NCBI RefSeq assembly: GCF_006345805.1
Contig: NC_042997.1
Location: 139,190,001 to 139,254,000 of the forward strand
Source of the DNA: Octopus sinensis
Taxonomy: Eukaryota
Reading direction: 5' to 3'
Length of the DNA stretch: 64,000 nucleotides
The notes below the pieces were generated by a model, which was not told where the DNA came from, did not search any database, and worked only from the letters and a program-made list of their open reading frames with translations. Made by a program: the position numbers and the translations under genes. This document shows positions 2,056 through 35,099 of the stretch, one piece after another. Every line of letters starts with the position of its first letter. The first letter of the stretch is position 1.

Positions 2056-2450
2056 CCTTTCTACTAAAGGTACAAGGCTCGAATTTTCTTTAGGGGCGGG
2101 AGAACTAGTCGATTACATAAACCCCAGTGTTTCTTTGATACTTAATTTATCAACCCCGAAAGGAAGAAAGGCAAAGTCGAACTCGATGGAATTTGAACTC
2201 AGAACGTAAGAACAGAGGAAATACCGCTAAATGTTTTAACCCGGCGTGCTAACGCTTCTGCCAGTTCGCCGCGAAAATAATAATAGTGGTTTCAAATTTT
2301 GCGACAAGGGCTGCCATTTTGGGGGAGGTGGCGAGTCGATTACATTGACTCCAGTGTTCAACTGATACTTATTTTATCGACCCCGAAAAGATGAAAGGCA
2401 AAGTCAACCTCGGCAGAATTTGAACTCAGAGCGTAGCGACAGGCGAAATA
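2056..2450 (-). mobile_element. Two tRNA-derived SINE copies (family B)
   Basis: Minus strand reads ggcgaactggcagaa..gttagcacgccgg..gagttcaaattcc (A/B-box-like head), central gtcgactttgcctttcatcctttcggggtcgataa, and a tail ending in (ATT)n. Confidence 0.85.
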
Positions 2451-3236
2451 CCTATTTCATTACTACCCACAAGGGGCCAAACACAGAGAGGACAAACAAG
2501 GACAGACAAAGGGATTAAGTCGATTATATCGACCCCAGTGCGTAACTGGTACTTATTTAATCGACCCCGAAAGGGTGAAAGGCAAAGTCAACCTCGGCGG
2601 AATTTGAACTCAGAACGTAGCAACAGGCGAAATACCTATTTCTTTACTACCCACAAGGGGCCAAACACAGAGAGGACAAACAAGGACAGACAAAGGGATT
2701 AAGTCGATTATATCGACCCCAGTGCGTAACTGGTACTTATTTTATCGACCCCGAAAGGATGAAAGGCAAAGTCAACCTCGGCGGAATTTGAACTCAGAAC
2801 GTAGCAACAGGCGAAATACCTATTTCTTTACTACCCACAAGGGGCCAAACACAGAGAGGACAAACAAGGACAGACAAAGGGATTAAGTCGATTATATCGA
2901 CCCCAGTGCGTAACTGGTACTTATTTAATCGACCCCGAAAGGATGAAAGGCAAAGTCAACCTCGGCGGAATTTGAACTCAGAACGTAGCAACAGGCGAAA
3001 TACCTATTTCTTTACTACCCACAAGGGGCCAAACACAGAGAGGACAAACAAGGACAGACAAAGGGATTAAGTCGATTATATCGACCCCAGTGCGTAACTG
3101 GTACTTATTTAATCGACCTCGAAAGGACAAAAAGCAAAATCGACCTCGGCGGAATTTGAACTCAGAACGTAACGGCAGACGAAATACTGCTAAGCATTTC
3201 GCCCGGCGTATTAACGATTCTCCCAGCTAGCCGCGA
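2451..3236 (-). repeat. Tandem array of family-B SINE units (184-bp period, 4 copies)
   Basis: cctatttc..ttactacccacaagggg recurs at 2451, 2635, 2819 and 3003. Units are nearly identical; only the last retains the 5' head. Confidence 0.92.
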
Positions 3237-31265: not shown

Positions 31266-33668
31266 CATTACTTCATTATTTAAAAGAATGTTGGGTTGGG
31301 AAATTGACTACATTTTTAGAGCATGGGAGAAAAATACGTTGCTTTTTATCTTTCAGGAGGTCAATGGAATAAAAAAAAAGAGACAATCAAGTAGCGAGTT
31401 CGATAATCGACCTTTCCTTCATCCCCAAAATTCTGATTGTGTGCCTATATTAGAAAATATTCTTTAAAAGATTGTTCCGACTGCTGTTGTGTCTGAAATT
31501 TGTTGCGTCTGAAGACATTTCGTATTCTTAGAACTAGAGTATTCTTTAAAAATGCATTTAAGTTATTATTTTGTGCAAGGGATGGCACAATTGGAAGAAT
31601 ATGAAACAAAATAGTTTATGGTACATTTTGACAATTTCGAGTCTGATTTAACTATTTTTTCCAGAATCGGCCTTATTTTACTATCTTCCCGAAATCTATA
31701 AAATATATACAGTGAAGTGCTGGGATCGATTCCATTGCTTTTCTACATTAGTGTAGACCTAGTTTTATGGTTGATTAACTTCTTTACTCGCTCCCGGTGT
31801 TGATAAAATAGGTTACCGGTCAACTATTGGGGGTCGGTGGTATCAACAAAATCCTTTCCCCAAAAATTCTTGTTTCTGTGCGTAAAATCAGAAACCGTTA
31901 GTCCCACTGAGCGGCTCCTTGGGAAAATGCCTTCTATTGTCACCTGTGAGTGGATTTTGCTAGATGGACAAACTGCTTCAGAGGCCTAACTAGTGTGGAT
32001 GTACGTAGTATGTATATACATATGCGTCACACGTGTGCATATTTGTCTGTATATCTATACATGTTCATGGTTGTATCTGTTTGACACAATGGCGCCAGTT
32101 GAAATAAGACAGATATCCAGTCAAACTGCTACCGCAGACAATCGCCATTATATAGAACTAGAAAATATATGGAGTGAAATAAGTACTGAGATTGCTACGA
32201 TCGGCTATAAATAAATGCTGAAGGTTGTGACTCAATGTGACTACAGTCTGATGACTGAAACTAACAAAAGAATTTATATCAATACTAAAAATAACATTTT
32301 GGGGGCTGCGGAACAAGTATCACAGAGATAAGCACCCGGTGATTTTGTTTGATGTCAATTGAAAATATTTCACCTCGGACAAAAGGTATGCATTTACAAT
32401 TTTTTCCCTTGTTTTGAAGGCATCTAATTCAAAGAACTCACTGTTTTAAATCGATGTCTAACAACATTTGCCAATGTATTTCATTTTAATTGTTGATATA
32501 ATAATTAGAGTGTTGTTAAGGCAGCGAACTGACAGATACGTTAGTATCTCCAGCAAGCTGTTCAACGGTATTTTTTTCCCTAGCTCTTTGCGCTCTGAGT
32601 TCAAATACCACTGAAGTCAGTTTATAAAATACCAGTATAGTATCAAAATCAAAATTTATGGTCCTGTATTTAAATCAGAAATAATTACTGAAGTAAGTAA
32701 TTCATTTGAGCAACGTACAAAATGCTCAACGGTATTTTTTCTAGCTCTTTACGTTCTCAGTTTAAAATATCCCCGAGGTCAGCTTTGCTTTTAATCCTTT
32801 CGGGATCTATAAAATAAAGTACCAATCAAAATTTATGGCCTTGTACCTTAATTAGGAAGAATAAAGACAGTAGACTGGCGTCTGACAAAATATCTTGAAG
32901 TATTTGTTCTAGCTCTTTATGTTCTGTGTTCATATCCTGCCGAAGTCAACTTTGCTTTTCGTTCCTCCGGTATCGATAAATTAGAGGAACTGTGAAGTAC
33001 AAATGTCATTGACGGAGGACTGAGTTCTAAATCCAGTTTTGAATTTTAGTGATATTCATTCCGCATTACATTCGCTATGCATCTCTACGCGCACGCGTAA
33101 GAATGGCATGAAAGTCATATCATCCTAATTTCTCATTTGTTATAATTTCAGTCTTCGTATAAAAGTCGGTGCTAAGACTAAACGAGTTGGCATAAATATT
33201 TTACAGTATTCAGTTGATTACATCAATTGTTTTTTCATTCAAAATCCCGTTTTGGTTGATTGCGTTTGCTGCTTGTTTCCTCCATGACTAATGAAATGAA
33301 GATCAATAAGATACAGAGATATATTAAAGCAATTATGATTTTAAATGATCTTGTGTTTAGACCAAACAAATATTATTGATTTGATTTTTTTAATATATAG
33401 ACGCAGGCGCAGCTGTGTGGTACGAAGTTTGCTTCCAGGTCACATGGTTCCGGGTTCAGTTTATCTTATACTTATTTCAGTCATTAGACACAAACCATGC
33501 TGGGGCAACGCCTTAAAGACATTTTAATCGAATGAATCGATCCCATGACTTATTTTCTCTTTGCCGAACCACAAAGTTACGGATACGTAAACACACCAAC
33601 ACCTGTTGTCAAACGGTGGTGGGGGACAACATAGACACAAAGACACATCCCTCACACACACACATATG

Positions 33669-33975
33669 TATATATAATAAAAGAAAGAAAATGCACGCAC
33701 TTTACATAGCTTTAATATATTTCTAATATATTTTATATTATGCTTGTCGTCCGGTTTCGCTTTCGCTAGTCATGACATTGAAATTATCGTACTTTCGTAT
33801 TTTCTTTGTCATGATTAGCGAAAGCGAAACCGTTCGACAAACACAATATAAAATATATTTTAAAATATATTAAAACTATGTAAATTGTGTGCATTTTCCT
33901 TCTTTTATTATATATATATATGTTGCATTACAACTCACCACGTGTGGATAATCGAAATTCTTCCCTTTGTGTTTT
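33669..33975. mobile_element. Fold-back insert with a minimal hammerhead-like motif in each arm (PLE-type remnant)
   Basis: ~109-bp imperfect inverted arms 33669-33777 and 33807-33916. + arm: ttgtc-ATGATTA-gc-gaaa-gc-GAAA-ccgt-TC-gacaa. - arm: tgtc-ATGACTA-gc-gaaa-gc-GAAA-ccgg-AC-gacaa. Confidence 0.65.
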
Positions 33976-34392
33976 ATATATATATATATATAACACAAAG
34001 TAAGTTATATATATATATATATATATAACACAAAGTAAGTTAGGGGTTATGGGTGCAACCCACTAAGGGATAGTATTTATCCAATATATTGTTGGTAAAC
34101 TACCCAAATTCTTAAACATAAATGTTTAATTGCAATGCATAACTTATTTATTGTATTAAACGGGTGAAGGCAAAGAAATATTTTATCGTTAATTTATAAT
34201 AAAAATAAGAAAATGGAGAAACAATTTAGTTTGTTCATCAACTTTCGGATATTAGAATGTTGAATTATTTATTCATTTAACAAAATGAGAACCTTAATAG
34301 CATACATATATACTTTATAATTCAATACATATAAGATAAGAATACAAATTATAAAAATCATAATATAAATTATTGAAATCATTAAAATCACT

Positions 34393-34766: not shown

Positions 34767-34915
34767 ACCCGGTAATTCCCGGGGGTAAAGATATTCTATT
34801 GAAACGCCTTATTACTCTGATATCAAAAAGCAATTTCGTTATAACTGCCACAAAAGTATATTTTCCATCGGAAAAAAGTACAAAAAACTCTCAGCTGGAG
34901 GAGGGAAGAATTGTT

Positions 34916-35099
34916 GGAGGTTGACGAGAGAGGTTTTCGGAAGTTGGCGGGAAACATTGTCGGAGGTTGGCAAGAGAGGTCATCAGAGGTTGTCGAGAGA
35001 GGTTATCGGAGGTTGTCGAGAAAGGTTTTCGGAGGTCGGCGAGAGAGGTTGCCAGAGGTTGGCGAGAGAGATTGTTAGAAGTTGTCAAGAGAGGTTTTC
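34916..35099. repeat. 23-bp minisatellite, 8 copies
   Basis: Consensus ggaggttgtcgagagaggttttc, 8 consecutive units with no indels. Confidence 0.9.

What the first reader, a model, noticed from the sequence alone, without database searches (positions are those of the whole stretch)
33744..33840. Minimal hammerhead with A3-U8 covariation in both arms of a hairpin
Both arms have A-U-G-A-Y-U-A instead of C-U-G-A-N-G-A, which preserves the established 3-8 Watson-Crick pair. Stem II is 2 bp with a GAAA tetraloop and stem I is (t)tgtc/gacaa. Each arm has one different lesion (ccgtTC vs ccggAC), so the inferred ancestor is GAAA-ccgg-UC: palindromic stem III with a GUC site, suited to dimeric cleavage. 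A ~35-nt non-canonical core like this would be missed by standard searches.
Basis: partly seen in the sequence, partly recalled or inferred. Interest (0 to 1): 0.75.

Follow-up and report, generated by a model that had tools for sequence, protein, structure and literature searches.

The report
Retroelement hammerheads with flipped core pair
The hairpin is a decayed stump of a Penelope-like jumping gene whose tail carries a tiny hammerhead-shaped RNA motif with an A-U pair where C-G is the rule; sister elements in the same genome carry U-A there, so the pair has flipped in nature while staying paired, which suggests a likely working, but untested, self-cutting RNA variant that standard searches miss.

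Summary
The two arms are head-to-head, 5'-truncated terminal repeats (pLTRs) of an old Penelope-like retroelement (RT plus C-terminal GIY-YIG, Neptune-like), so they are one insertion, not two witnesses, and both are damaged. The real support lies across families. Families A/B (the window's; 68 of 78 copies) and H (23 of 25) have A3-U8; C, E2, F and G have U3-A8; none has C3-G8. Stem I, stem II and the palindrome change sequence yet stay paired, and a tree rejects one A3-U8 clade. Against: cleavage is untested, a published all-pairs mutagenesis found only the G-C swap rescuing, and insertion ends do not pile up at the cut site. Minimal dimeric hammerheads in these elements and U3-A8 are in print; I found no natural A3-U8 family, but key papers were not available. 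The scan earlier noted one A3-U8 copy in a phage. Verdict: new variant of a known kind.

The parts
33662..33807 (-). 5'-truncated terminal repeat (pLTR) fragment of Penelope-like family A, inverted copy
   Evidence: 81.5% over 146 nt to the family A element L026
33745..33777 (-). Hammerhead-like motif, left arm: stem I 4 bp, A3 33773, U8 33768, private C7, lesion U16.1>A at 33750; predicted cut would fall between 33749 and 33748
   Evidence: family comparison
33807..33984 (+). 5'-truncated pLTR fragment, direct copy, starting at the first base of stem I; joined head-to-head to the inverted copy
   Evidence: 83.7% over 178 nt to L026
33807..33839 (+). Hammerhead-like motif, right arm: A3 33811, U8 33816, stem II 33818-33825, GAAA 33826-33829, palindrome 33830-33833 with lesion G>T at 33833, U16.1-C17 33834-33835; predicted cut would fall between 33835 and 33836
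33927..33973 (+). Tail extension present on the right arm only, as described for Penelope-like insertions
   Evidence: matches in 10 of the 25 loci L001-L025; description in PMC8557442 and PMC3846280
33662..33923 (.). Whole inverted repeat (long hairpin) formed by the two pLTR fragments, flanked by CA/TA microsatellites

Best explanation
The locus is a decayed head-to-head pair of truncated terminal repeats of a Neptune-like Penelope-like retroelement, and the motif in each arm is that element's minimal hammerhead, with A3-U8 in place of C3-G8, which likely cut the element's RNA as a dimer when the family was active. Shown: the motif lies about 270-290 nt after the stop of an RT + GIY-YIG reading frame and, in a full-length copy, also just before its start in the same orientation; related families keep positions 3 and 8 paired as A-U or U-A while stems, loop II and palindrome change. 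Predicted: two copies on one transcript pair through the ACCGGU palindrome to build stem III for each other. Inferred: the 3-8 pair stacks on stem I as in the crystal structure and the RNA is cut after GUC, probably slowly and perhaps with help from the element's protein. The two copies in this window are probably inert.
For: Element context: GIY-YIG (PF01541, E 1e-5 to 1e-6) in frames ending just upstream of the motif; RT (PF00078) in sister family C; 635-aa open frame with RT, Cys linker and GIY-YIG followed by an A3-U8 motif (L239); full layout with 5' direct, 3' and inverted motifs in L395 and inverted-plus-3' layout in L026. 3-8 pair: A-U in 68 of 78 cores from 90 copies chosen by downstream sequence only, C-G in 0; A-U in 23 of 25 family H copies; U-A in 51 of 56 motifs from the family C loci, 3 of 3 family F, 18 of 19 family G loci and 13 of 14 family E2 loci. 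Family G (U-A) groups with A/B at 99% bootstrap and one A3-U8 clade is rejected, AU p 0.0065. Stem I differs between families and stays complementary: TGTC/GACA, ATATC/GATAT, AAGAAAT/ATTTCTT, TATTC/GAATA, AAACG/CGTTT with variants AGGCG/CGCTT; its third pair is A-U in 37, G-C in 28, G-U in 4 and unpaired in 9 of 78. Loop II varies while GC/GC stays. The palindrome stays one when it grows from 4 to 6 and 8 nt. The monomer fold is unfavourable (+0.9 to +7.6 kcal/mol) in all 8 intact motifs tested, and the double hammerhead is the two-molecule minimum for 3 of the 8. Published: such motifs cleave weakly as dimers (PMC4209133); covarying 3-8 pairs were reported active in vitro (PMC3088659 citing earlier work).
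Against: No cleavage assay. [quoted passage not shown] Among 29 genomic copies the motif is no better conserved than its flanks (0.898 against 0.905-0.914), as expected for dead copies but giving no support. Only 1 or 2 of 90 copies start at the predicted cut site. For 5 of 8 intact motifs (F, G, E2, two H) the two-molecule minimum keeps the palindrome duplex but not stem I. Sister families tolerate other core changes (C13 in E2; an extra base in the GAAA of G and H), which could mean weak catalytic demand. No motif was found within 1.5 kb after the frame in family E1. Stem II is only 2 bp. The tree is of the protein; exchange of 3' ends between families could give the same pattern with fewer flips, and the AU test ran 5000 replicates with a warning.
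Confidence: 0.68

Rival explanations
1. Same element and same fold, but no useful catalysis: the motif is kept as a dimerisation, priming or protein-binding signal of the retroelement RNA, and the 3-8 pair is kept because it extends stem I.
For: A-U did not rescue in the published pairwise scan; further core departures in E2, G, H; no pile-up of insertion ends at the cut site; the 2014 paper itself leaves functions other than cleavage open.
Against: U4, G5, A6, A9, G12, A14, A15.1, U16.1 and a non-G position 17 are kept in all six motif-bearing groups, whose proteins are only 51-70% identical; a mere helix extension would not need them.
Confidence: 0.22
2. A3-U8 is drift in a ribozyme that had already died; the pairing is coincidence.
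For: Copies decay neutrally at the motif; the two arms are not independent.
Against: Both positions changed together at least once and probably twice; families A/B and H spread afterwards to many copies (2748 and 1932 first-look candidates) with stems repaired by compensating changes; no family has an unpaired 3-8 combination as its majority.
Confidence: 0.05
3. The window locus is itself a working unit: a fold-back element or hairpin-RNA gene, or a retrozyme, whose two arms act together.
For: Very stable 130-bp hairpin.
Against: The arms are on opposite strands, so one transcript holds one sense motif, buried in the duplex; each arm has a lesion and neither gives the double-hammerhead fold; arms differ at 12 of 115 bases; inversion points differ between loci; no tandem array as in retrozymes; inverted truncated pLTRs with a one-sided tail are the published norm for these elements.
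Confidence: 0.05

Closest known systems
Minimal hammerheads in pLTRs of metazoan Penelope-like elements (Cervera and De la Pena 2014, PMC4209133)
   Same: Type I layout, short stem I, palindromic stand-in for stem III, place in the pLTR, pairs on opposite strands close together, many solo truncated copies, predicted dimer.
   Different: Core pair A3-U8: none of the 56 motifs of their Fig. S3 has A3 (53 C3, 3 U3) and no cephalopod is listed. Stem II is 2 bp (theirs 3 bp or more, often 7-8) and there is no extra base between 9 and 10.1.
Natural U3-A8 hammerheads (Perreault et al. 2011, PMC3088659; Schistosoma family Sm3/Sm4 in PMC4209133)
   Same: Two-sided change of the 3-8 core pair; 2-bp stem II and an inserted U in GAAA are also reported there. 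Families C, E2, F, G of this genome are of this type.
   Different: The pair is reversed (A-U), and both orientations sit in sister families of one retroelement clade.
Small dimeric hammerhead variants of Penelope-like retrotransposons (Lunse, Weinberg, Breaker 2017, PMC5785218)
   Same: By title and by a review's summary (PMC6765202): small variants with palindromic short stem III that cleave as dimers.
   Different: Paper not held; whether its alignments contain A3-U8 is unknown to me.
Neptune clade of C-terminal endonuclease Penelope-like elements (as defined in PMC8557442 and PMC3846280)
   Same: RT, then CX2-5CxxC linker, then GIY-YIG with CCHH-type residues; inverted truncated copy at the 5' end; one-sided tail; microsatellite flanks.
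   Different: Not placed against named Neptune, Nematis or Hydra references in a tree, so clade membership rests on motifs.

Membership tests
Penelope-like element (C-terminal EN) | Single frame with RT followed by GIY-YIG endonuclease | tested here: met
   Met by family copies elsewhere; the window holds no coding part (tblastn empty). PF00078 passed for family C, not for the partial B and H frames scanned.
Penelope-like element (C-terminal EN) | pLTRs in direct partial tandem and inverted 5'-truncated copy, one-sided tail | tested here: met
   L395 direct plus inverted; L026, L027, L082 inverted; tail in 10 of 25 loci
Neptune clade | CX2-5CxxC linker between RT and GIY-YIG, and CCHH motif | tested here: met
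   Read directly in L239 and L111 frames; definition from PMC8557442
Neptune clade | RT groups with reference Neptune elements | not tested
   No named reference proteins were in hand; the tree has only this genome's families and unnamed or mollusc homologues
Hammerhead ribozyme | Core U4 G5 A6, A9, G12 A13 A14, A15.1-U16.1, H17 | tested here: met
   Majority base at every position in 78 cores; the left arm of the window has lost U16.1
Hammerhead ribozyme | Canonical letters C3 and G8 | tested here: not met
   0 of 78 cores are C3-G8; the three G8 copies fetched have A, G, A at 3
Hammerhead ribozyme | Watson-Crick pair between positions 3 and 8 | tested here: met
   A-U in A/B and H, U-A in C, E2, F, G
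Hammerhead ribozyme | Stems I and II with compensatory changes | tested here: met
   stem II itself is invariant GC/GC in A, B, C, H and longer in E2, F, G
Hammerhead ribozyme (dimeric, PLE type) | Palindromic stem III allowing a double hammerhead | tested here: met
   Palindrome in all families; computed two-molecule minimum is the double hammerhead for A, B, C but not for F, G, E2, H or the window arms
Hammerhead ribozyme | Site-specific self-cleavage after H17 | not testable with these tools
   Only assembled contigs were available; insertion ends give no support
Rfam hammerhead families | Covariance-model score at gathering or E<=1 | tested here: not met
   No hit in the window nor in 6 loci, including a canonical C3-G8 motif
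Non-LTR retrozyme | Head-to-tail array of 150-400-nt units, canonical hammerhead, no coding frame | tested here: not met
   Window pair is inverted and belongs to a coding element; the genome's retrozyme-like family D is a different sequence

The most novel reading that the evidence does not exclude
A whole clade of Neptune-like retroelements in this animal lineage has given up the C3-G8 pair of the hammerhead core and flips it between U-A and A-U more than once, while also accepting C13 and insertions in GAAA. Families A/B and H would be the first high-copy natural A3-U8 hammerheads, active in a context (dimer, element protein) that rescues a pair found weak in vitro, and a sign that a large set of genomic ribozymes lies outside every current search pattern.
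Probability: 0.4. Interest if true: 0.68.

Novelty: new variant of a known kind. Interest (0 to 1): 0.5.

Why it matters
The role and even the activity in cells of the minimal hammerheads of Penelope-like elements is an open question. Here related families supply a ready natural series, U3-A8 and A3-U8 on nearly the same scaffold (A/B and C share stem II, GAAA and palindrome), with young near-intact elements (families B, C, H), so one set of dimer assays can ask whether selection keeps the pair for catalysis. It also shows that descriptors fixed on C3-G8 or U3-A8 undercount these motifs. It does not reveal a new class of RNA, and the window's own copies are relics.

Tried and rejected
Rfam: nothing in the window, no hammerhead family in 6 loci at E<=1. 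Conservation of the motif against flanks in 29 copies: no excess. 5' ends at the predicted cut site: no pile-up. G8 copies as C3-G8 revertants: none of 3 has C3. Metagenome scan for the A3-U8 pattern: 3 hits, none with stem I or a retroelement frame, taken as chance. Sequencing runs: no RNA holder listed, contigs only, so nothing on expression or cleavage; contigs of four coded organisms cover the motif. Pair count on alignment A1: my structure string was out of register for the stems, so only its 3-8 row (6 A-U, 2 U-A of 8) is usable; stems were parsed by script instead. No motif found after the frame in family E1 (12 loci) or L219 within 1.5 kb. Paper searches for 'A3-U8', 'A3U8', 'positions 3 and 8', and 'C3A' with 'G8U' found no relevant paper; a search on octopus, hammerhead and Penelope failed to run. 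Not held: Lunse 2017, Przybilski and Hammann 2007, Nelson and Uhlenbeck 2008, Arkhipova 2017.

Full report
Observation. The window is bases 139,190,001-139,254,000 of contig C1 of a 2.72-Gb animal genome. The nearest named homologues of the element protein are from molluscs (Argonauta 53%, oysters 44-45%), and the window's short repeats look to me (recalled) like octopus SINEs. The arms sit in an inverted repeat of about 33662-33923 (-143 kcal/mol, z -21.9) and match at 103 of 115 bases.

What carries it. The flanks of the 25 copies are homologous for up to 1.1 kb upstream and lead into a frame with a GIY-YIG domain (PF01541, E 1.7e-5 and 1e-5 in 2 of 6 fragments, 0.045 in a third) and RT motifs. 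L026 shows an inverted truncated copy, RT and endonuclease remnants, and the 3' motif. A younger subfamily B has a 635-aa open frame with RT, a C-x-x-x-x-C-x-x-C linker and GIY-YIG, with the motif 286 nt after the stop (L239). L395 has the motif directly before the start of the frame in the same orientation, a damaged one after it, and an inverted one upstream. This is the layout described for Penelope-like elements, with the linker of the Neptune type (PMC8557442 and PMC3846280, passages). The window holds two pLTR stumps head to head (33662-33807 on -, 33807-33984 on +), a tail on one side only (10 of 25 loci share it), and no coding part. Family A copies are 78-85% identical to the query copy, so the family is old. 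The two arms come from one insertion and cannot count as covariation.

The 3-8 pair. In 90 copies chosen only by a downstream 30-mer, 78 keep the core; 68 are A3-U8, the other 10 are scattered single or double changes, none C3-G8. The three G8 copies among the 100 listed have A, G and A at position 3. Related families were found by DNA, pattern and protein searches; of each search only the top 25-30 loci were read. Family C (proteins 52-64% identical to A fragments; copies 95-97% alike; 1204 pattern matches) shares stem II, GAAA and CCGG with A but is U3-A8 in 51 of 56 motifs read. F is U3-A8 in 3 of 3, G in 18 of 19 loci and E2 in 13 of 14 (the missing loci showed no motif). H is A3-U8 in 23 of 25. 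E1 and L219 showed no motif within 1.5 kb. In the protein tree G groups with A/B (99% bootstrap) to the exclusion of H (25 sequences, two short A fragments), and a single A3-U8 clade is rejected (AU p 0.0065, 18 sequences, 5000 replicates with a warning). So the pair changed on both sides at least once, and at least twice if 3' ends were not exchanged between families; A/B, C and H share the short stem II, so exchange is possible.

The rest of the fold. Stem I has a different sequence in each family and is complementary in each. Between A and B its third pair is G-C in 28 and A-U in 37 of 78 copies, G-U in 4, unpaired in 9; this is one event, in which a deletion brought in the new 3' strand. 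In H, three copies change both strands. Loop II varies freely in B and C while GC/GC stays. The palindrome is 4 nt in most families and 6 or 8 nt in H. One contig of another coded organism, depth 5, has the A3-U8 core in unrelated flanks with a 3-nt loop II and a reversed fourth stem I pair; a single contig is weak. For all 8 intact motifs tested the monomer fold is unfavourable; for A, B and C the free two-molecule minimum is the double hammerhead (-13 to -15 kcal/mol), for the other five only the palindrome duplex forms, and for the window arms neither.

Mechanism. Shown: place in the pLTR, core letters, paired 3-8, compensated stems, palindrome. Predicted: dimer through the palindrome on a transcript with two direct pLTRs. 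Inferred from the known family: cleavage after GUC to trim the element RNA. PMC4209133 (abstract to methods, parts 1-2 of 4, and supplement parts 1-2 of 3) reports no activity for monomers and low activity for dimers and trimers of such motifs.

Against. Nothing here shows cleavage. PMC9901934 (passages) found that of all double mutants of one hammerhead only the G-C swap rescued this pair. Copies decay evenly across motif and flanks. Only L295, and roughly L381, of 90 copies begin at the predicted cut, and partner copies in other loci show spread-out ends. E2 has C13 and G and H have an extra base in GAAA; an inserted U there is a reported tolerated variant (PMC3088659, passages). A non-catalytic structural role therefore stays open.

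Novelty. Minimal dimeric hammerheads in pLTRs and natural U3-A8 are in print. None of the 56 motifs in the 2014 alignment has A3. Full-text searches for A3-U8 wordings found nothing relevant (one search returned only two papers on C3-G8 or U3-A8). The papers most likely to mention it (Lunse 2017; Przybilski and Hammann 2007; Nelson and Uhlenbeck 2008; Arkhipova 2017) were not held, and I did not open the supplements of PMC3088659 or PMC8557442, so absence from print is not established; from memory, A3-U8 has been made and tested in engineered ribozymes. Other papers seen: PMC7229834, PMC3884650, PMC2920678, PMC6765202, PMC6155905, PMC7761336 (passages), PMC10085705 (passages and section 14), PMC11014351 (term search, no hits), bioRxiv 10.64898/2026.07.22.740005 (part 1 of 5). 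The scan's own notes hold several Penelope hammerheads and one phage copy with A3-U8, unchecked by me, and none in this genome.

Verdict. A real feature of a known kind with an apparently unreported core variant, backed by family-level covariation rather than by the two arms. New variant of a known kind; interest 0.5.

Noticed in passing
L146-L175, e.g. L157:1501-1884, L165: Family D: canonical C3-G8 type I hammerhead in 355-360-nt tandem and inverted units with no retroelement frame nearby, retrozyme-like; it has the same CCGG palindrome as the Penelope motifs, so mixed dimers are conceivable. 135 pattern matches against 25 control, most of the listed ones this family.
   Followed up: partly
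L188-L206 (family E2), about 750-980 nt after the frame: U3-A8 motif with C instead of A at position 13 in all 13 copies showing it.
   Followed up: partly
L242-L266 (family G) and L269-L293 (family H): One extra base in the GAAA segment: an added A in G (17 of 18), a U after G12 in most H copies.
   Followed up: partly
L179-L187 (family E1), L219: Related Penelope-like families with a long microsatellite-like 3' region and no hammerhead-like motif found within 1.5 kb.
   Followed up: partly
L160:1490-1545, L170:1490-1545: Two further single C3-G8 minimal hammerhead candidates with 7-8-bp stem I and the CCGG palindrome.
   Followed up: no
L026:4664-5164: A 167-aa frame that looks (recalled) like a Helitron/PIF1-type helicase fragment inserted inside the family A element.
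   Followed up: no
window 2334-3187: 4.6 tandem copies, 95% alike, of a 184-nt unit resembling the dispersed SINE-like repeat of this genome.
   Followed up: no
window 34911-35099: Eight copies of a 23-nt purine-rich unit with a 69-nt higher-order period.
   Followed up: no
L117, L132/L133, L334 and the window: Several very short head-to-head insertions whose inversion point lies within about 40 nt upstream of the motif, in families A and C; not tested for enrichment.
   Followed up: partly
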